Positions 19,670-33,521 of a DNA stretch of 64,000 nucleotides are shown here, in pieces. A program made the position numbers and the translations under genes. The notes under the pieces are model-generated. The model was not told where the DNA came from. It worked only from the letters and a program-made list of their open reading frames with translations, and did not search any database. This DNA comes from Gammaproteobacteria bacterium (GTDB lineage Bacteria > Pseudomonadota > Gammaproteobacteria > CAJXQU01): NCBI GenBank assembly GCA_965238175.1, contig CBDEGZ010000003.1, positions 96,001-160,000 of the forward strand, read 5' to 3'. Within the stretch, counting starts at the first letter, position 1. Each line of letters opens with the position of its first letter.

Positions 19670-20644
19670 TTACTGACTTAATTCAAACAACGCTTCTTCT
19701 GCCACGACTGCAGGTAGAGGAATATATCCATCTTTGACAACCACTTCCTGACCTACTTTTGACAATATCATTTTAACAAATTCAAGCTCCAATGGTGAAA
19801 GTGATTTATTAGGATGTTTGTTTACGTAAACATATAAAAAACGACCTAAAGGATACTTACCCGTTACGGCATTTTCTGGCGTAGCATCGATAAATTCCCC
19901 ATCTGGTTTTTTAGTCAAAGGAACTGCACGCACACCCGAAGTTTTATAACCAATACCAGAATAACCGATACCGTTGACCGATTTAGTAATGCCTTGTACG
20001 ACAGAAGCAGAACCTGGTTGCTCATTCACAGAATCTTTATAGTCACCTTTGCAGAGTGCTTTCTTTTTGAAGTAACCATAAGTACCAGAAACGGAATTTC
20101 GTCCATATAGTTGGATAGGACGGTTAGCCCATTCACCCGTTAAACCTACGTCACCCCAGTTTGTAATGTCTGCATCGTGTTTACATTTTCGAGTTGCAGA
20201 AAAGATCGCATCCACTTGTGGAATAGATAAGCCTTTTACAGGGTTATCTTTGTTAACATAGACTGCAAGAGCATCGATTGCGACTGGAACAGCGGTAGCT
20301 TTATAGCCATGTTTTGCTTCAAAAGCCGCTGCTTCTTTGTCTTTCATTTTACGACTCATAGGGCCGAAATTTGAAGTACCTTCTGTTAGTGCAGGTGGTG
20401 CTGTTGAAGAACCAGCCGCTTGAATTTGGATATTAACGTTAGGGTATAAACGTTTAAATTCTTCACCCCAGAGCGTCATTAAGTTTGCTAGCGTATCAGA
20501 ACCGACACTAGAAACATTGCCCGATACACCACTCGCTTTTTGGTAATCCGGAAGTCCCGAATCCGCTTCAGCATAAGATCCCACCGGGATCATGAACGCA
20601 GCGGCAATTGCACTTGCTCTAAAGAAATTTTTATTGAAAAACAT
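19670..20644 (-). CDS. pstS: Phosphate-binding protein PstS (copy 1)
   Basis: Signal peptide, [35 protein letters not shown]. Confidence 0.95.
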
Positions 20645-20685
20645 TTTATTACCTTCCTCAGGATGACTGTTAATGAATCACCGAC

Positions 20686-20741
20686 AGTATGATCAGGACA
20701 GGTAACAAGTTTGTTACAGAAATATTACAGCTTGATGACAA
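20686..20741 (-). promoter_or_regulatory. Four-repeat Pho-box array and -10 of pstS1
   Basis: Minus strand TTGTCAT-N4-CTGTAAT-N4-CTGTAAC-N4-TTGTTAC, then CATACT 10 bp downstream. Confidence 0.85.
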
Positions 20742-20882
20742 GCTGTGTTTTTATAATTAAAGGAAATTATTTAGGCCTATAGAACAGTTAGTTAACCTGA
20801 TGTGATGGTCTCCTCCCCCTAACGGCATCTAGGTGCCATGATTGAACTGACATACACACAATCAAAAGAGGAGAAGACCAAA

Positions 20883-21896
20883 ATGAAGACTACAACAATC
20901 GGGTTAGACATAGCAAAAAACGTATTTCATGCTGTCTGCTGTAATCAACAAGGGCGTATAATCAAAAAGAAAATGTTAAAGCGAGCGCAGGTACTCTCCT
21001 TTTTTCAATCTCAACCTCCTTGTTTAGTCGCAATAGAATCTTGTGCAACGTCACAGTATTGGGCCCGAGCGATACAACAACAGGGACATCAGGTGAAATT
21101 ACTACCACCTCAGCATGTTAACGCATTTCTAATCGGCAATAAGAATGATTATAACGATGCCTTGGCCATCGCCGTTGCTGCGAAACAACCTCATTTAAAA
21201 AGTGTGGGCATTAAATCAGTTGAGCAACAAGACAACCAGGCACAACATAAAGCAAGAGACTTAGCGGTCAGACAAAGAACCGCATTATGTAACCAAATGA
21301 GAGCGCTTGTTGCAGAATATGGCATTAGCCTTCGTCCCGGCCTAAATACCCTACGTCAATCTATCCCGTTGCTATTAAGTGATGAGAACGAACGGTTGTC
21401 CGTTACTTTCAAAAGGATACTGCGCCAGCTAAAGGAACAATGGCAATCACTTGATGCCTGTATTGCGACATTTGACCAATTGATCATTCAATCGGCAAAA
21501 AACAATGCGATTTGCCAACGCTTACAAACTATTCCAGGGTTTGGGCCGATGGTCTCGAGCGCGTATTTTAATGAAGTGGGAAACGGCGCTCATTATCACA
21601 AAGGGCGCGATGTGTCCGCCTCATTAGGACTTGTTCCACGACAGTACAGTAGTGGTGGTAAAGAGGTGCTACTGGGGATCAGTAAACGCGGCAATAAATA
21701 CCTTCGTTGTTTGTTAATTCTAGGCGCGAAGGCCGTGGTATCAAGAGCCAAAACGAAAGGCGATAAACTGAGTCAATGGATTAATCGTTTAGTTGAGACG
21801 CGGGGGCATAATCGAGCGTGTGTGGCGTATGCCAACAAAATGGCAAGAATGGCCTGGGCTATAACGGTTTCTGGTGATGACTACTCACCGGCCTAA
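20883..21896 (+). CDS. IS110-family DEDD recombinase/transposase
   Basis: IGLDIAK, IES, KNDYNDA (RuvC-like DEDD) and PRQYSSGG (catalytic Ser region); start at MKTTT after GAGGAG. Confidence 0.95.
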   Translation: MKTTTIGLDIAKNVFHAVCCNQQGRIIKKKMLKRAQVLSFFQSQPPCLVAIESCATSQYWARAIQQQGHQVKLLPPQHVNAFLIGNKNDYNDALAIAVAAKQPHLKSVGIKSVEQQDNQAQHKARDLAVRQRTALCNQMRALVAEYGISLRPGLNTLRQSIPLLLSDENERLSVTFKRILRQLKEQWQSLDACIATFDQLIIQSAKNNAICQRLQTIPGFGPMVSSAYFNEVGNGAHYHKGRDVSASLGLVPRQYSSGGKEVLLGISKRGNKYLRCLLILGAKAVVSRAKTKGDKLSQWINRLVETRGHNRACVAYANKMARMAWAITVSGDDYSPA

Positions 21897-22142
21897 ATAG
21901 AGAGAACAAATCATTTCAACGAATTGCGAAGGTAAAACTAAAGATGGCATAACAGGTCAAACCAGCCTATTGAAAACCTGTCGAGCTCAGGGGTAACTAA
22001 TACCGATAACCTGATAAGGAAAATAGGCGCGTAATACATCCAGGTCAGAAGTTGAAAACTTCATTGAAGGCCGTATATATGACAGCAATCCTGTCCCTGT
22101 TATCTGAATGTTTTATCTTGCAATACGGGAGGAGACCATATA
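21897..22142 (+). ncRNA. Predicted bridge/seekRNA of IS1111-type element, copy 1
   Basis: Outer stem ATAACAGG/CCTGTTAT; stem GCCTATT/AATAGGC enclosing target-matching CGAGCTCAGG and TAACCTGA; donor-matching ACATC and ATATATGA flank hairpin GAAGTT/AACTTC. RNA ends are not determined. Confidence 0.75.
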
Positions 22143-22152
22143 TGAGATCGGT

Positions 22153-23052
22153 TTAAGCCACGGTTGCTAATGCCCGTTTTAAGTAATTAAATTCATCGCC
22201 AGACAAGTTCAAAGACGGCTTATTCTCTTTCAGACAATAAGCGATCAATCCACCGATAAGATTAAGCATAAAACCATGTACAGAGCGGTGTCTGGAATGT
22301 TCTATCTGAGTAATGTTCTTCAACTGGTCATTAATGGTTTCAATAATAAAACGTCTGCTCAGCATGGCTCTGTCCCAGAGCGATGTAGCTTTTGCCTTCA
22401 TGTTTTTTCGAACATTTGTCACCAACTCCACGCCTTTATCAAACAATTCGCTCGATAAGGCTTGGCTGATATAGCCCTTATCCCCGTAAAGTTTGCCACT
22501 CATCGCCTTGCACAGCTCGGGAACAGGCTGACGGTCATCGATATTTCCCGGGGTGATTTTGGCTGCCAGGATATCCCCCTGATGATTGGTGATAAGGTGT
22601 AACTTGAAACCATAAAACCAACCCATTGTGCCTCGACCTCGCTGGGCGATGTCTTTGAAAACACGGTGGCGTGGAATACGGAGGTTGTGGCACACTTTTA
22701 AGGCGGTTGAATCAACAAACGCAACACCTGTGGGTTTCCCTTTAAGATAAGAAAAGTAGCTACATAAAGGAACGAGCACTGTCGGCATCACCTCCAGAAA
22801 CCGCGTGTAGCTTAGCATCTGTGGAAAATCCTCGGCATAGAATTGAGCGATAAACCCTTTGTAGTAGTTCTTGAAATCGCGATGGTTGGAGTGATGAAAC
22901 AGGATGATGATAGTCATGATTTCGCTGGCTTGCATTCGCCCAACTCGACGGCGTTTGCGTTGCCCATCGGTCAGTAATTGTTGTTCCCACAACGGTATGA
23001 AGTGCTGACAGAAGTCATCGACATCACAAAAGATTTCAACTAGTTTATCCAT
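22153..23052 (-). CDS. IS982-family DDE transposase
   Basis: EIFCDVDDF start, FVDST, GWFYGFKLH, GDKGYIS, RFIIETINDQLKN, IEHSRHRS. Confidence 0.93.
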   Translation of the reverse strand: MDKLVEIFCDVDDFCQHFIPLWEQQLLTDGQRKRRRVGRMQASEIMTIIILFHHSNHRDFKNYYKGFIAQFYAEDFPQMLSYTRFLEVMPTVLVPLCSYFSYLKGKPTGVAFVDSTALKVCHNLRIPRHRVFKDIAQRGRGTMGWFYGFKLHLITNHQGDILAAKITPGNIDDRQPVPELCKAMSGKLYGDKGYISQALSSELFDKGVELVTNVRKNMKAKATSLWDRAMLSRRFIIETINDQLKNITQIEHSRHRSVHGFMLNLIGGLIAYCLKENKPSLNLSGDEFNYLKRALATVA

Positions 23053-23143
23053 TGGCTTGTTCTCCTTTTTTTTCAATTGTTTGGTCACAATTGATCTGAT
23101 CGGGGGACAAGCCGTTAGTTCATTTCCTTAAGCCGAGTTGGGG

Positions 23144-23863
23144 TTAGTTACGATATTTTTCTTTGTCTTCCAGTCTTCTTTGGTGTCGCAGATTAACTCC
23201 GTGGATAAGATAGATCACATATTCGGCGATATTTCCTGCATGTGCTCCTAGCCTTTCAAGTGATTTCAACATTAACGTGATGTTGATCGAATGTCCGAGG
23301 TTTCTCGCATCTTCAAGTACAAAGGTTGTTAAATGCCTTAAAGATGATTGAAATTCAGCATCAAGCTCCTGATCAGCATTGAGTAAAGATTTTGCTAATT
23401 TTGAATCTAATTGATCAAAAGCAGTTAGTGCGGTTTCTAATAATTCCAATGACAATCTGCCCATTACAGAAATATCACGCAATTGGTTTTTTGCAGGCTT
23501 CGGTTGATTAGCATCTGAAAGTGACTCAATAATGTGTGCGATTCGAGCTGCTTCGTCACCAATTCTTTCAAGATCGACAACGATCCTGGAGAATGCCATC
23601 GTAATCCGCAGATCTTTGGAGACTGGACCACGTTTGTTAATGAGATCAATTATCTTATTATCAATAGCAACTTCCATGGAATCGACTTCCGGCTCTCTTT
23701 CCAAAACCAGTTTGGCCGCTTTTTCATCCTGTTCGAGCAATGCTTGAAGCGCGAGTCGACTTTGATCTAAAGCCAAGCCGCCCATTTCAAGTATTTGTAA
23801 GTGCAGATTATTCAAGTCACCATCAAAGCGCTGATCGGCATGTCCTTCTAGTGGTTGATTCAT
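23144..23863 (-). CDS. phoU: PhoU (copy 2)
   Basis: MGGLALDQ, DLERIGDEA, LERLGAHAGNIAE; last gene of pst2 operon. Confidence 0.9.
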   Translation of the reverse strand: MNQPLEGHADQRFDGDLNNLHLQILEMGGLALDQSRLALQALLEQDEKAAKLVLEREPEVDSMEVAIDNKIIDLINKRGPVSKDLRITMAFSRIVVDLERIGDEAARIAHIIESLSDANQPKPAKNQLRDISVMGRLSLELLETALTAFDQLDSKLAKSLLNADQELDAEFQSSLRHLTTFVLEDARNLGHSINITLMLKSLERLGAHAGNIAEYVIYLIHGVNLRHQRRLEDKEKYRN

Positions 23864-27489: not shown

Positions 27490-27770
27490 TTGTGTCTCCT
27501 CCCGAATGGGAATTTGCAGCTTTTAATTTCGTTCATAAGCTACTTAAAATTATGTTGTTTTACTTAACCTGAACTCGGGATAAGAAATATCCATCCAGCC
27601 GATTTCTTTTAGCGCCTCTGTGCGTTGGAGTTGTTTCCAATAGCCCGCTATTGCTACGCAACTCCGCCTTAATAGCCACTAAAAGAAGTCCACTGGACAA
27701 AGCAGTCACAGCGATTTCATCTAACTCATTGTCTTTTAATGTTTTTATGGCCATTCTTATCCCGAGTTCA

Positions 27771-28016
27771 TATATGGTCTCCTCCCGTATTGCAAGATAA
27801 AACATTCAGATAACAGGGACAGGATTGCTGTCATATATACGGCCTTCAATGAAGTTTTCAACTTCTGACCTGGATGTATTACGCGCCTATTTTCCTTATC
27901 AGGTTATCGGTATTAGTTACCCCTGAGCTCGACAGGTTTTCAATAGGCTGGTTTGACCTGTTATGCCATCTTTAGTTTTACCTTCGCAATTCGTTGAAAT
28001 GATTTGTTCTCTCTAT
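27771..28016 (-). ncRNA. Predicted bridge/seekRNA, copy 2
   Basis: Reverse complement of 21897-22142. Confidence 0.75.
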
Positions 28017-29030
28017 TTAGGCCGGTGAGTAGTCATCACCAGAAACCGTTATAGCCCAGGCCATTCTTGCCATTTTGTTGGCATACGCCACACACGCTCG
28101 ATTATGCCCCCGCGTCTCAACTAAACGATTAATCCATTGACTCAGTTTATCGCCTTTCGTTTTGGCTCTTGATACCACGGCCTTCGCGCCTAGAATTAAC
28201 AAACAACGAAGGTATTTATTGCCGCGTTTACTGATCCCCAGTAGCACCTCTTTACCACCACTACTGTACTGTCGTGGAACAAGTCCTAATGAGGCGGACA
28301 CATCGCGCCCTTTGTGATAATGAGCGCCGTTTCCCACTTCATTAAAATACGCGCTCGAGACCATCGGCCCAAACCCTGGAATAGTTTGTAAGCGTTGGCA
28401 AATCGCATTGTTTTTTGCCGATTGAATGATCAATTGGTCAAATGTCGCAATACAGGCATCAAGTGATTGCCATTGTTCCTTTAGCTGGCGCAGTATCCTT
28501 TTGAAAGTAACGGACAACCGTTCGTTCTCATCACTTAATAGCAACGGGATAGATTGACGTAGGGTATTTAGGCCGGGACGAAGGCTAATGCCATATTCTG
28601 CAACAAGCGCTCTCATTTGGTTACATAATGCGGTTCTTTGTCTGACCGCTAAGTCTCTTGCTTTATGTTGTGCCTGGTTGTCTTGTTGCTCAACTGATTT
28701 AATGCCCACACTTTTTAAATGAGGTTGTTTCGCAGCAACGGCGATGGCCAAGGCATCGTTATAATCATTCTTATTGCCGATTAGAAATGCGTTAACATGC
28801 TGAGGTGGTAGTAATTTCACCTGATGTCCCTGTTGTTGTATCGCTCGGGCCCAATACTGTGACGTTGCACAAGATTCTATTGCGACTAAACAAGGAGGTT
28901 GAGATTGAAAAAAGGAGAGTACCTGCGCTCGCTTTAACATTTTCTTTTTGATTATACGCCCTTGTTGATTACAGCAGACAGCATGAAATACGTTTTTTGC
29001 TATGTCTAACCCGATTGTTGTAGTCTTCAT
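28017..29030 (-). CDS. IS110-family DEDD recombinase/transposase
   Basis: Translation identical to 20883..21896. Confidence 0.95.
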   Translation of the reverse strand: MKTTTIGLDIAKNVFHAVCCNQQGRIIKKKMLKRAQVLSFFQSQPPCLVAIESCATSQYWARAIQQQGHQVKLLPPQHVNAFLIGNKNDYNDALAIAVAAKQPHLKSVGIKSVEQQDNQAQHKARDLAVRQRTALCNQMRALVAEYGISLRPGLNTLRQSIPLLLSDENERLSVTFKRILRQLKEQWQSLDACIATFDQLIIQSAKNNAICQRLQTIPGFGPMVSSAYFNEVGNGAHYHKGRDVSASLGLVPRQYSSGGKEVLLGISKRGNKYLRCLLILGAKAVVSRAKTKGDKLSQWINRLVETRGHNRACVAYANKMARMAWAITVSGDDYSPA

Positions 29031-29127
29031 TTTGGTCTTCTCCTCTTTTGATTGTGTGTATGTCAGTTCAATCATGGCACCTAGATGCCGTTAGGGGGAG
29101 GAGACCATCACATCAGGTTACTTAGAG

Positions 29128-32295: not shown

Positions 32296-33521
32296 TGTAG
32301 AAGTTTAGACCCAATCTGACACATCACTAAATCAAGCGGAGCGTAGCGACGCTTGATTTAGTGAGAGTTACCCGCTTTGATGTAACTGCAACGTAAACAT
32401 CAAAACACAAAGAGGTAACTCTCATGATTCATACTAATGACAAAGTTATAAAACATAAAGTTGGTCTACTCAATCTCGCTGAAGAACTCGGCAATGTCTC
32501 AAAAGCCTGCAAGATGATGGGTTTGTCCAGAGATACATTTTATCGCTACAAAGAAGCGGCTGATGAAGGCGGTGTAGAAGCCTTGTTTGATCGTAATCGG
32601 CGTACCCCAAATCTTAAAAACAGAATCGACCCGGCTATTGAAACCGTTGTGCTCGAGTATGCACTGGAAGAGCCCGCACATGGTCAAACGCGCACCAGTA
32701 ACGAGCTGCGCAAACGGGGAACATTTGTCTCACCCAGTGGCGTTCGTTGTATCTGGCTTCGTCATGGTCTTGCTTGCTTTAAAGATCGCCTGAAGGCATT
32801 GTCTGATAAGGTAGCTGGTGAAGGCTTGATCCTCACTGAGTCTCAAGTCGCGGCGATGGAACGCAAGAAAGACGACGATGAGGCTTGTGGCGAGATAGAG
32901 ACGGCACACCCTGGTTATCTTGGCTCGCAAGATACTTACTATGTCGGTACTTTCAAAGGCATTGGTCGGGTTTATCAACAAACGTTTGTTGATACTTACA
33001 GCAAGGTCGCTCACGCGAAACTGTACCCGACTAAAACACCGATTACGGCAGCTGACATGCTCAATGACCGCGTCCTCCCATTCTACGAACAACAACGTTT
33101 GCCTATGTTGCGCATTTTGACAGATAGAGGGACGGAGTATTGTGGGCGAGCTGACCAGCATGATTATCAGCTTTATATGGCGTTGAACAATATCGAACAC
33201 ACCAAAACCAAGGTCAAATCACCTCAGACGAATGGTATTTGTGAGCGATTCCATAAGACGATCCTCAATGAGTTTTATCAAGTCGCTTTGCGTAAGAAAA
33301 TTTACCAATCGATTGATGAACTGCAACTCGACCTTGACGAATGGTTGCTCAAATACAATACTCAACGAACTCACCAAGGCAAAATGTGCTGCGGGAGGAC
33401 GCCGATGGAAACACTCATCGACGGACAAGCTATCTGGAAGGAAAAGTTTGTGAATTAAACTTAACCTGACAGTCGGTTACTGATAATTGGGTAACTGTCA
33501 GATCAAATCTGAATTTCTACA
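32296..33521 (+). mobile_element. IS481-family element, copy 1 (1226 bp)
   Basis: TGTAGAA...TTCTACA termini shared with copy 2; flanks are not duplicated. Confidence 0.9.
32424..33458 (+). CDS. IS481-family transposase
   Basis: N-terminal HTH (NVSKACKMMGLSRDTFYR); rve DDE core (SQDT, LTDRGTEY, PQTNGICERFH). Confidence 0.93.
   Translation: MIHTNDKVIKHKVGLLNLAEELGNVSKACKMMGLSRDTFYRYKEAADEGGVEALFDRNRRTPNLKNRIDPAIETVVLEYALEEPAHGQTRTSNELRKRGTFVSPSGVRCIWLRHGLACFKDRLKALSDKVAGEGLILTESQVAAMERKKDDDEACGEIETAHPGYLGSQDTYYVGTFKGIGRVYQQTFVDTYSKVAHAKLYPTKTPITAADMLNDRVLPFYEQQRLPMLRILTDRGTEYCGRADQHDYQLYMALNNIEHTKTKVKSPQTNGICERFHKTILNEFYQVALRKKIYQSIDELQLDLDEWLLKYNTQRTHQGKMCCGRTPMETLIDGQAIWKEKFVN

What the first reader, a model, noticed from the sequence alone, without database searches (positions are those of the whole stretch)
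21897..22145. Readable bridge/seekRNA in an IS1111-type element, with guides matching IS982 transposon ends
Seen: the ~250 nt after the recombinase stop has an outer stem (ATAACAGG 21949 / CCTGTTAT 22096). A stem GCCTATT (21965) / AATAGGC (22022) encloses CGAGCTCAGG (21982-21991), a GGTA/TACC hairpin, and TAACCTGA (22007-22014). TAACCTGA equals the left half plus core of both reconstructed insertion sites. CGAGCTCAGG differs by one base from the bottom strand of each site (CGATCTCAGG, CGAGTTCAGG), so it is intermediate between them. A second loop has ACATC (22036), hairpin GAAGTT/AACTTC, and ATATATGA (22075), matching the two strands of the predicted circle junction ATATATGA-TGTG. Known: IS110/IS1111 recombinases use such bispecific RNAs, encoded downstream of the gene in IS1111-type elements. 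Inference: this RNA is programmed to recognise IS982 terminal IRs, a target class I do not recall being described.
Basis: partly seen in the sequence, partly recalled or inferred. Interest (0 to 1): 0.93.

Follow-up and report, generated by a model that had tools for sequence, protein, structure and literature searches.

The report
Bridge-RNA insertion sequence targeting IS982 ends
A 1.3-kb jumping gene of the IS1111 type carries its own guide RNA, whose guide segments match the end repeats of another transposon family (IS982 and its miniature derivatives); this is a well-documented new example of a mechanism described in 2024.

Summary

- **The element.** It is a 1345-bp IS1111-type insertion sequence with an IS110-family DEDD recombinase, 13-bp subterminal inverted repeats and a 246-nt 3' non-coding region. 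The host genome holds 25 near-identical copies.
- **Insertion sites.** All 25 copies have AACCTGA directly on their left. 16 of the 24 readable right flanks continue into the inner half of an IS982-type terminal repeat. Three of these belong to full IS982-family elements. Most of the rest are a ~210-bp MITE or solo repeats.
- **Guides co-vary with targets.** Across 46 related elements the RNA scaffold is conserved and the two target-loop segments follow each element's own flanks. The 7-nt left guide matches perfectly in 33 of 46 own pairs against 0 of 2010 mismatched pairs. The 8-nt right guide matches perfectly in 24 of 46 against 6 of 2010.
- **Structure.** 18 of the 34 predicted base pairs show compensatory changes.
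- **Crossover core.** It is the dinucleotide TG, not TGA.
- **Close relatives.** Relatives at 60-77% recombinase identity aim at the same repeat family, two of them in the opposite orientation.

No RNA data exist, and no occupied site pairs perfectly with the right guide. Targeting of transposon end repeats has a precedent in IS4321/IS5075 on Tn21. I rate this a new member of a known kind, of moderate interest.

The parts
20798..22142 (+). IS1111-type insertion sequence, copy 1 (1345 bp). The boundaries follow the 7-bp left / 3-bp right extension convention. Because TGA stands at both junctions, 20801-22145 is an equivalent statement.
   Evidence: 25 copies at 99.9% identity or more in the own genome. 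Boundaries come from the flanks and from the convention in PMC11187229.
20805..20817 (+). Left subterminal inverted repeat, ATGGTCTCCTCCC.
   Evidence: 13 of 13 complementary to 22127-22139. The same repeat is present in relatives.
20883..21896 (+). Recombinase gene, 337 aa, DEDD/RuvC-like domain plus Tnp domain.
   Evidence: NCBIfam NF033542 'IS110 family RNA-guided transposase', E 2.9e-90. Pfam PF01548 and PF02371. D9, E52, D89 and D92 are invariant in alignment A1. The motif GLVPRQYSSG is read.
21945..22105 (+). Predicted bridge/seekRNA core: outer stem 21949-21956 / 22096-22103, target loop closed by 21965-21971 / 22022-22028, then the donor loop.
   Evidence: Folds. Consensus structure over 44 sequences with 18 of 34 pairs compensated. 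RNA ends and expression are not known.
21982..21991 (+). Right target guide, CGAGCUCA(GG). It pairs with the top strand (CC)TGAGCTCG of the target.
   Evidence: The aligned segment in relatives equals the reverse complement of core plus right flank: 8 of 8 in 24 of 46 elements against 6 of 2010 mismatched pairs.
22007..22013 (+). Left target guide, UAACCUG. It has the same sense as TAACC plus the TG core, so it pairs with the bottom strand.
   Evidence: Identical to the left flank of 24 of 25 copies. In relatives it matches 7 of 7 in 33 of 46 elements against 0 of 2010 mismatched pairs.
22036..22040 (+). Right donor guide, ACAUC. It pairs with GATGT of the left end (20799-20803).
   Evidence: Only 5 nt. 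The A/U at its second position follows the left-end base in 4 of 6 elements whose left-end extension ends in GTG, and in all elements with GAA or GAG ends (my reading of the table). This is the weaker of the guide assignments.
22075..22081 (+). Left donor guide, AUAUAUG. It has the same sense as the right end ATATA plus the TG core.
   Evidence: Its core dinucleotide equals the core of the target guide in 44 of 46 elements (20 TG, 24 CG).
22118..22123 (+). TTGCAA, a -35-like hexamer. After circularisation it would lie 17 nt upstream of TA|TGAT, forming a junction promoter. In the integrated copy the last T of the -10 is missing.
   Evidence: Read. CTTGCAA is invariant in 12 of 12 aligned relatives. 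Function is inferred. Junction promoters in this family are stated in PMC11187229.
22127..22139 (+). Right subterminal inverted repeat, GGGAGGAGACCAT.
20793..20799 (+). Left half of target 1: TAACC plus the TG core. These are the outermost bases of the IS982 left terminal repeat.
   Evidence: Uninterrupted repeats elsewhere read TAACCTGAACTCGGGATAAG.
22143..23146 (-). IS982-family element whose left terminal repeat is split by copy 1. Transposase gene at 22153-23088 (-). The other terminal repeat is at about 23127-23146.
   Evidence: NCBIfam NF033520, E 2.5e-83. Pfam PF13612. The imperfect repeat is read.
27768..29112 (-). IS1111-type element, copy 2 (coordinates from the BLAST match; same 3-nt ambiguity).
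   Evidence: 100% identity. Junctions read.
27565..27767 (+). MITE of about 210 bp carrying IS982-type terminal repeats. Its right repeat is split by copy 2; the severed tip is at 29113-29120. Its left repeat, 27565-27584, is an intact unoccupied target.
   Evidence: (second repeat 183 nt away).

Best explanation
The region is the guide-RNA gene of an active IS1111-type insertion sequence.

**Proposed cycle (steps 1, 2 and 5 are inferred from the published family mechanism; steps 3 and 4 rest on sequence evidence gathered here).**
1. The element excises as a circle. This abuts ...ACCATATA to TGATGTG... and completes a junction promoter (TTGCAA, 17 nt, TATGAT).
2. Transcription through the recombinase gene and the 3' non-coding region yields an RNA of about 160 nt (about 21945-22105) with two internal loops.
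3. [quoted passage not shown] Together they specify TAACC-TG-AGCTCG.
4. In the donor loop, ACAUC and AUAUAUG pair with the two strands of the circle junction ATATA-TG-ATGT.
5. The DEDD/serine recombinase exchanges strands at the shared TG core. The element is inserted in one orientation, without a target duplication.

**What the target is.** The specified sequence is the tip of the terminal inverted repeat of IS982-family elements and of a ~210-bp MITE that shares that repeat. Insertion separates the outermost 5-7 bp of the repeat from the rest. This probably disables the host element, but that was not tested.
For: **Family features**
- The recombinase matches NF033542 (E 2.9e-90), PF01548 and PF02371.
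- The element has 13-bp subterminal repeats with 7-bp and 3-bp extensions and a 246-nt non-coding region after the gene.

**Natural insertions in the own genome**
- There are 25 copies at 99.9% identity or more.
- 25 of 25 have AACCTGA on the left, and 24 of 25 have TAACCTGA.
- 16 of 24 right flanks carry the inner half of the repeat, within two mismatches of TCGGGATAAG.
- 3 of 24 are followed by a full IS982-family transposase gene and 1 by a fragment. 5 have the second MITE repeat 183-185 nt away.
- Uninterrupted repeats show that the left and right halves are contiguous.

**Dependence on guide match**
- Among repeat-type sites, those with a perfect 7-mer are 15 occupied and 6 empty. Those with one mismatch are 1 occupied and 13 empty (Fisher p = 3.3e-4).
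- An IS481-family element carries TTAACCTGACAGTC. This matches the left guide perfectly and matches 0 of the 5 counted right-guide positions. Only 1 of its 59 copies is occupied.

**Covariation across relatives**
- Over 46 elements, the left guide matches its own flank 7 of 7 in 33, against 0 of 2010 non-own pairs. The right guide matches 8 of 8 in 24, against 6 of 2010.
- The core dinucleotide is the same in the donor guide and the target guide in 44 of 46.

**Structure**
- Over 44 sequences, 97.9% of cells are paired. 18 of 34 pairs have a change on both sides. 0 of 500 shuffles reach any of the observed measures, and structures slid by 1-3 columns pair in only 28-41% of cells.

**Agreement with the literature**
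- The top-strand complement lies 5' of the bottom-strand match, as reported for IS1111-type seekRNAs (PMC11187229, sections read).
- Pairing with the left bottom strand and the right top strand, with the core included in each, follows PMC11208160 (passage read).

**Close relatives**
- L139, L137, L140, L146 and L142 aim at TAAYC-TG-ARYTCGG repeats. L142 has an IS982 transposase fragment (76% identity) just downstream.
- L138 carries guides for the same repeat in the opposite orientation and sits in such a site. L068 carries the same guides, but its flanks are not available.
Against: - **No RNA shown.** Expression, RNA ends and processing are unknown.
- **No perfect right-guide match.** None of the 24 occupied sites is perfectly complementary to the right guide. 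I counted the 5 bases after TGA against GCTCG by hand: 4 of 5 match at 10 sites, 3 of 5 at 7, 2 of 5 at 5, 1 of 5 at 1 and 0 of 5 at 1.
- **A perfect site is empty.** The one perfectly matching site in the genome (G000:C3:393937) is unoccupied, although it lies 3 bp from an existing copy.
- **Unexplained right flanks.** 8 of 24 right flanks lack the inner half of the repeat. Three of these share one foreign sequence after ACT. Later insertions or recombination between the identical copies could explain this, but neither was shown.
- **Weak right donor guide.** It is only 5 nt, and its covariation is partial.
- **Related and filtered sample.** The 46 relatives are kin, not independent. They were also selected: of 161 sources examined, 63 passed my scaffold pattern plus inverted-repeat finder. 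46 of those kept a repeat starting ATGGTCTCC, an ATA right extension and long enough flanks.
- **No promoter in the integrated copy.** The simple scan found no + strand promoter-like site in the integrated element.
Confidence: 0.88

Rival explanations
1. The real target is the ~210-bp MITE family and solo repeats. Full IS982-family elements are hit only because they share the repeat, so 'programmed against IS982' overstates the case.
For: Only 3 of 24 sites are full IS982-family elements. 5 are clear MITEs, and about 8 more are repeat-type flanks with no nearby transposase gene. The other terminal repeat of each IS982 copy reads TAACCCC or TAACTCC, has no TG core and is never occupied. L138 sits in a MITE-like end and not in a full element.
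Against: The repeat is the same sequence in both. One IS982-family copy (C3:1090264) begins TAACCTGAACTCGGGATAAGAA, exactly like the MITE. L142, a relative from a metagenome, also sits directly beside an IS982 transposase fragment. The RNA can read only about 13 bp, so it cannot tell a MITE from its parent element.
Confidence: 0.3
2. The 3' non-coding RNA is mainly a regulator of the element, for example an attenuator, terminator or antisense partner. Target choice would then be made by the protein, and the guide-like matches would be relics of captured target sequence.
For: A terminator-like hairpin was flagged at 22081-22095. ISPpu9 carries a small-RNA gene downstream of its transposase gene, and a regulatory role was proposed for that RNA (PMC12288879, passage read).
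Against: Relics would not change in step with each element's flanks while the scaffold around them stays fixed. The core dinucleotide changes together in both loops. Guidance by such RNAs was shown experimentally for four IS1111 members (PMC11187229, abstract and sections read).
Confidence: 0.04
3. The matches between the non-coding region and the flanks are chance. The 25 shared left flanks exist because AACCTGA is part of the element.
For: The words are short (7-10 nt). The left flank is invariant, as an element end would be.
Against: Both words occur together in 15 of 20000 shuffles. Uninterrupted repeats carry TAACCTGA joined to ACTCGGG with no element between them. Sequence to the left of TAACCTGA differs at every copy.
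Confidence: 0.01

Closest known systems
[quoted passage not shown]
   Same: An IS1111-type element with subterminal repeats that inserts in one orientation at a fixed position inside another transposon's terminal inverted repeat. The theme is the same. I saw only the paper's title, in the reference lists returned.
   Different: The host transposon is a different family (IS982 and its MITE, not Tn3-family) and the target sequence is different. The best plasmid-borne relatives of this recombinase are only about 46% identical, and I did not establish which named IS they are. The paper itself was not held.
ISEc11, ISKpn4, ISPst6 and ISPa11 with their seekRNAs (Siddiquee et al. 2024, PMC11187229)
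   Same: The non-coding region lies downstream of the gene. The RNA has a top-strand complement 5' of a bottom-strand match, and the two overlap on the target. The transposase is 330-350 aa with the GL-P----S/TG motif. The extensions are 7 bp and 3 bp.
   Different: Those targets are a short linear site, attC sites and REP sequences. For this element RNA binding and function are untested. The published seekRNA is 70-100 nt, whereas the conserved structure here spans about 160 nt and includes a donor loop.
IS621 bridge RNA (Durrant et al. 2024, PMC11208160)
   Same: There are two internal loops, one for the target and one for the donor. Each has a left guide for the bottom strand and a right guide for the top strand, and all of them include a shared core dinucleotide.
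   Different: IS621 encodes the RNA upstream in its left end, has a CT core, has only 2-3-bp subterminal repeats and places the guides in the opposite order. Here the RNA is in the right end, the core is TG (YG in the clade) and the right guides come first.
Unnamed relatives from marine Gammaproteobacteria and metagenomes (L137-L146, L068; nearest proteins 83% identical from a metagenome and 79% from Shewanella psychromarinicola)
   Same: The scaffold, the subterminal repeat and the TGATGTG left end are the same. Seven of the nine compared carry guides for the same IS982-type repeat family.
   Different: The guides differ by single bases (CGAGUUCA, CGAAUUCA, AGAGCUCA; UAAUCUG) or are swapped so that the same repeat is hit in the opposite orientation (L138, L068). 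L057 and L141 have other targets.

Membership tests
IS1111 group of the IS110 family | DEDD (RuvC-like) N-terminal domain plus the C-terminal PF02371 domain | tested here: met
   PF01548 E 3.2e-16 and PF02371 E 6e-20. NF033542 scores 302.9 bits against a cutoff of 140. D9, E52, D89 and D92 are invariant in A1.
IS1111 group of the IS110 family | Subterminal inverted repeats of 11-13 bp with a 7-bp left and a 3-bp right extension | tested here: met
   13 of 13 complementary arms at 20805-20817 and 22127-22139. The extensions are TGATGTG and ATA, as in relatives. The criterion is from PMC11187229.
IS1111 group of the IS110 family | The longer non-coding region lies downstream of the transposase gene | tested here: met
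   246 nt after the stop codon against 85 nt before the start codon.
IS1111 group of the IS110 family | GL-P----S/TG motif in the C-terminal domain | tested here: met
   GLVPRQYSSG is read in the translation. G249, P252, S256 and G258 are invariant in A1.
IS1111 group of the IS110 family | Site-specific and orientation-specific insertion without target duplication | tested here: met
   25 of 25 copies have the same left flank and the same orientation relative to the repeat. Joining the flanks restores the uninterrupted repeat when one copy of the shared TG(A) is counted as part of the element.
IS1111 group of the IS110 family | Circular intermediate with a junction promoter | not testable with these tools
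   The sequence would allow TTGCAA, 17 nt, TA|TGAT, and CTTGCAA is invariant in 12 of 12 relatives. The DNA contigs showed no joint.
Bridge RNA / seekRNA | Conserved structured RNA with two internal loops in the non-coding end | tested here: met
   34 pairs in 7 helices, 97.9% of cells paired, 18 pairs compensated, and 0 of 500 shuffles as high.
Bridge RNA / seekRNA | Target-loop arms complementary to both strands of the natural target, overlapping at the core | tested here: met
   The right guide has one mismatch or more to every occupied site in this genome (hand count).
Bridge RNA / seekRNA | Donor-loop arms complementary to the joined element ends | tested here: inconclusive
   AUAUAUG matches the right end plus core 7 of 7, and its core tracks the target core in 44 of 46 elements. 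ACAUC matches only 5 nt, with partial covariation.
Bridge RNA / seekRNA | The RNA is made, binds the recombinase and is needed for transposition | not testable with these tools
   No test was possible with these tools.
Bridge RNA / seekRNA | Match to a curated RNA family | tested here: not met
   No Rfam 15 family matched 20000-23500 at E up to 1. This shows only that none of the library's families matched.
IS982 family (the host element) | IS982-type DDE transposase flanked by terminal inverted repeats | tested here: met
   NF033520 scores 279.4 bits against a cutoff of 130. PF13612 E 5.5e-78. The imperfect repeats TTAACCTGAGATCGGTTTAAG and CTAACCCCAACTCGGCTTAAG are read.

The most novel reading that the evidence does not exclude
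A subclade of RNA-guided IS1111-type elements in marine Gammaproteobacteria may be specialised as hyperparasites of IS982-family transposons and their MITEs.

- Their guide RNAs follow sequence variants of the host repeat through single-base changes (AGCTCG, AACTCG, AATTCG; TAACC, TAATC).
- They have twice arrived at the same repeat from opposite orientations.
- Each insertion cuts off the repeat tip and so silences the host transposon.

If so, this would be a natural RNA-guided conflict between two transposon families and not merely the use of a convenient repeated landing site.
Probability: 0.3. Interest if true: 0.6.

Novelty: new member of a known kind. Interest (0 to 1): 0.42.

Why it matters
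The element gives a natural, internally controlled data set for RNA-guided recombination.

- **One guide RNA and many natural sites.** There are 25 insertions and dozens of near-miss sites in one genome. They show which mismatches are tolerated. One mismatch just after the core is common among occupied sites. Mismatches in the 7-nt left guide, or loss of the TG core, go with empty sites.
- **A new target.** It adds an IS/MITE terminal repeat to the known natural targets of this family (REP sequences, attC sites, Tn21 repeats).
- **Small evolutionary steps.** Close relatives keep the scaffold while changing guides by single bases, or swap the two guides to flip orientation. This shows how retargeting happens in nature.

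The mechanism is not new. The value lies in documentation and in material for studying specificity.

Tried and rejected
- **RNA evidence.** The look-up of sequencing runs listed no RNA holder. The three DNA contig sets, all from one sample, gave no joints or circle junction when laid on 20600-22400. They showed only higher depth over the element than over its flanks. They may be the sample the genome came from.
- **Rfam.** No family matched.
- **Plasmid collection.** There was no near-identical DNA. The protein search gave only relatives at about 46% identity. One was inspected. It is a different IS110-family element, and the matching right repeat was not found before the adjacent IS5 element, so it may be truncated. 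I did not pursue it.
- **Relatives in the same order.** Only 6 other genomes are held, all of one genus. None has this element, and one has a 40% relative.
- **Promoter scan.** No + strand promoter-like site was found in the integrated element. I rely instead on reading the junction by eye.
- **Literature on IS982 or MITE ends as IS110/IS1111 targets.** Searches gave nothing relevant. PMC3205602 was checked by passages and does not bear on the question. Partridge & Hall 2003 is not held. Supplementary tables of PMC11187229 and PMC11208160, which list targets and predicted RNAs for ISfinder entries, could not be seen and may already list a similar target.
- **A 3-nt TGA core.** Rejected: relatives show a YG dinucleotide.
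- **Organism.** Not determined. The nearest named PhoU relative is a Cycloclasticus MAG at 74%.
Full report
**1. What is there**

Window 20798-22142 is a 1345-bp insertion sequence. Because TGA stands at both junctions, 20801-22145 describes it equally well.

- **Recombinase.** The gene at 20883-21896 encodes a 337-aa protein. It matches NCBIfam NF033542, 'IS110 family RNA-guided transposase', at E 2.9e-90, and Pfam PF01548 and PF02371.
- **Repeats.** Perfect 13-bp subterminal inverted repeats lie at 20805-20817 and 22127-22139. A 7-bp extension (TGATGTG) lies to the left and a 3-bp extension (ATA) to the right.
- **Non-coding region.** A 246-nt non-coding region follows the gene.

These are the features that define the IS1111 group according to PMC11187229 (sections read).

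**2.

Every motif is at the stated coordinate, and the single-sequence fold forms the same stems. The two sites in the window are TAACCTGA|GATCGG (copy 1) and TAACCTGA|ACTCGGG (copy 2, at 27768-29112 on the minus strand). The RNA segment CGAGCTCAGG differs from each bottom strand by one base, as stated. In 20000 dinucleotide shuffles of the non-coding region, both guide words occurred together 15 times.

**3. Natural insertions in the own genome**

The assembly is 3.35 Mb in 3 contigs. It holds 25 copies: 22 are identical to the query over their whole length, 2 are 99.93% identical, and 1 is cut off by the start of a contig.

- **Left flank.** All 25 copies have AACCTGA immediately to the left, and 24 have TAACCTGA. 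Sequence further left differs at every copy.
- **Right flank.** Of the 24 readable right flanks, 16 carry the inner half of one repeat, within two mismatches of TCGGGATAAG.
- **Intact repeats.** Uninterrupted copies of that repeat read TAACCTGAACTCGGGATAAG (window 27565-27584). TAACCTGA is therefore target sequence and not part of the element.
- **What the repeat belongs to.**
  - It is the terminal inverted repeat of IS982-family elements. Three full transposase genes lie directly to the right of a copy, at C3:118156, 1172087 and 1090264. A fragment lies beside a fourth copy. The window copy matches NF033520 at E 2.5e-83.
  - It is also the terminal repeat of a ~210-bp MITE. The second repeat lies 183-185 nt away at 5 sites.
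- **Remaining flanks.** The other 8 right flanks are of four kinds. Three share one foreign sequence after ACT. One lies inside an IS481-family element. One is an inverted copy of the repeat 3 bp away. Three are unrelated or only partly similar. Later insertions or recombination between the 25 identical copies could have produced these, but I did not show it.

**4. Does occupancy follow the guides?**

- **Left guide.** Among repeat-type sites, those with an intact TAACCTG are 15 occupied and 6 empty. Those with one mismatch in these 7 bases are 1 occupied and 13 empty (Fisher p = 3.3e-4). The sites are related to one another, and a few of the empty ones may not be true repeats. The other end of each IS982 copy reads TAACCCC or TAACTCC, lacks the TG core and is never occupied.
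- **Left guide alone is not enough.** An IS481-family element carries TTAACCTGACAGTC near its end in 59 copies. This matches the left guide perfectly and matches 0 of the 5 counted right-guide positions. Only 1 of the 59 copies is occupied.
- **Evidence against a simple picture.**
  - No occupied site is perfectly complementary to the right guide. I counted the 5 bases after TGA against GCTCG by hand: 4 match at 10 sites, 3 at 7, 2 at 5, 1 at 1 and 0 at 1.
  - The single perfect site (C3:393937) is empty.
  - That site lies 3 bp from an existing copy. Filling it would create a long inverted duplication, which may explain why it is empty. This explanation is my inference.

**5. Covariation in relatives**

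Protein relatives range from 83% identity downward. They come mostly from marine Gammaproteobacteria and metagenomes. I fetched 80 loci from the genome collection and 80 from metagenomes.

- **Selection of the sample.** Of 161 sources (the window plus 160 loci), 63 passed a scaffold pattern plus an inverted-repeat finder. Of those, 46 kept a repeat starting ATGGTCTCC, an ATA right extension and long enough flanks.
- **Scaffold.** The alignment shows fixed elements (UUGAAAACCUG, AUAAGGA, CAUCGAGGCC, GGCCGGAUAUAYG, CCUGUCCCUGU) around variable segments.
- **Left guide.** The 7 nt before AUAAGGA equal the element's own left flank (5 nt) plus core. The match is 7 of 7 in 33 of 46 elements, 6 of 7 in 7, 5 of 7 in 4 and 4 of 7 in 2. 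None of the 2010 non-own pairings reaches 7.
- **Right guide.** The segment after AACCUG equals the reverse complement of core plus right flank. The match is 8 of 8 in 24 of 46 elements and 7 of 8 in 10. Among non-own pairings, 6 of 2010 reach 8 of 8.
- **Core.** The core is YG. It is the same in the donor guide and the target guide in 44 of 46 elements.
- **Right donor guide.** This segment (ACAUC here) is short and co-varies only partly.
- **Structure.** The consensus structure of 44 sequences has 34 pairs. 18 show changes on both sides, and 97.9% of cells are paired. 0 of 500 shuffles reach any measure, and slid controls pair in 28-41% of cells.

The relatives are kin, so these counts overstate independence.

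**6. The close subclade**

An alignment of the RNA region of nine relatives with the window, together with their flanks, gives the table below.

| Locus | Recombinase identity | Right guide / left guide | Site found |
|---|---|---|---|
| L139 | 76% | CGAGUUCA / UAACCUG | Perfectly matching TAACC-TG-AACTCGGTTTAAG |
| L137 | 77% | Same guides as L139 | TAACC-TG-AGCTCAGGATAAG |
| L140 | 74% | CGAAUUCA / UAAUCUG | TG-AATTCGGG repeat |
| L146 | 71% | CGAAUUCA / UAAUCUG | TG-AATTCGGG repeat |
| L142 | 69% | AGAGCUCA / UAACCUG | Beside an IS982 transposase fragment, 76% identical |
| L138 | 76% | UAACCUCA / CGAGCUG | CCCGAGC-TG-AGGTTA: the same repeat family read from the other strand |
| L068 | 60% | UAACCUCA / CGAGCUG | Flanks not available |

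L057 and L141 have other targets. Aiming at this repeat family is therefore a trait of the subclade, with small natural retargeting steps.

**7. Mechanism**

The segments map onto the published nomenclature (PMC11208160, passage read) as follows.

| Guide | Window position | Pairs with |
|---|---|---|
| Right target guide | 21982-21989 | Top strand TGAGCTCG |
| Left target guide | 22007-22013 | Bottom strand of TAACCTG |
| Right donor guide | 22036-22040 | GATGT of the left end |
| Left donor guide | 22075-22081 | Bottom strand of ATATA plus TG |

The order, with the top-strand complement first, is the one reported for IS1111-type seekRNAs.

Circle formation, a junction promoter (TTGCAA at 22118-22123, then 17 nt, then TA|TGAT), RNA production and strand exchange at TG are inferred from the family literature and from conservation of CTTGCAA (12 of 12). 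None of these was observed here.

Insertion leaves the outermost 5-7 bp of the host repeat on the far side of the element. This probably immobilises the IS982 element or MITE. That too is an inference.

**8. Comparison and novelty**

The system works like, and passes the sequence-level membership tests of, an IS1111-type element with a bridge/seekRNA. The nearest thematic precedent is IS4321/IS5075 in Tn21-family terminal repeats. I saw only the title of that paper, because the paper is not held.

I found no published mention of IS982 or MITE ends as a target in searches. ISfinder and the supplementary tables of the two 2024 papers could not be consulted. No Rfam family matched.

I rate it a new member of a known kind. 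Its interest lies in the natural specificity data and in the subclade-wide association with one transposon family, not in a new mechanism.

**9. Limits**

- There is no RNA evidence.
- The host organism was not identified. Its nearest named PhoU relative is a Cycloclasticus MAG at 74%.

Noticed in passing
window 32424-33458 (+), and about 59 places in G000:C3: An abundant IS481-family element (NF033577, E 6.9e-83) carries TTAACCTGACAGTCGGTTACT near one end. This matches the left guide perfectly and the right guide poorly. Only one copy (C3:589241) holds the IS1111-type element.
   Followed up: partly
G000:C3:393937-393959: The only site perfectly complementary to both target guides (TAACCTGAGCTCGGGG) is unoccupied. 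It lies 3 bp from the right end of an inverted copy of the element. Filling it would give a long inverted duplication.
   Followed up: partly
G000:C3:945279, 1052806 and 2865993 (right flanks): Three copies with different left flanks share the identical right flank ACTGTAGAAGTTTAGACCCAATCTGACAC. It looks like the end of another insertion sequence that has replaced the inner part of the repeat after ACT.
   Followed up: no
L064, L065, L067, L178, L189, L194, L195, L211: In 8 of 46 relatives the left junction reads TG, while both RNA loops and the right junction read CG. One core base therefore differs between the two junctions of an integrated copy. No explanation was tested.
   Followed up: no
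G000:C3:2357914-2358291: A partial, diverged second IS1111-type left end (79% identity over 387 nt). Short fragments of the left end also lie at C3:1154719, 2897434 and 1393277-1393336.
   Followed up: no
L130 522-1397 and L136 797-1177: In a Rickettsia endosymbiont genome, distant IS110-family relatives (41% identity) also lie next to IS982-like transposase genes (41-46% identity to the window's). Chance adjacency in a genome rich in insertion sequences was not excluded.
   Followed up: no
L217 2420-3800 (plasmid NZ_CP058173.1): An IS110-family element with the subterminal repeat ATGGTCGCCTCCC and a similar RNA scaffold. No matching right repeat was found before the adjacent IS5 element, so its right end may have been cut off by that insertion.
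   Followed up: partly
window 19670-23863: The IS982 element and the IS1111-type element sit between phoU (23144-23863, -) and a pstS-family gene (19670-20644, -). They therefore interrupt a phosphate-uptake gene neighbourhood.
   Followed up: no
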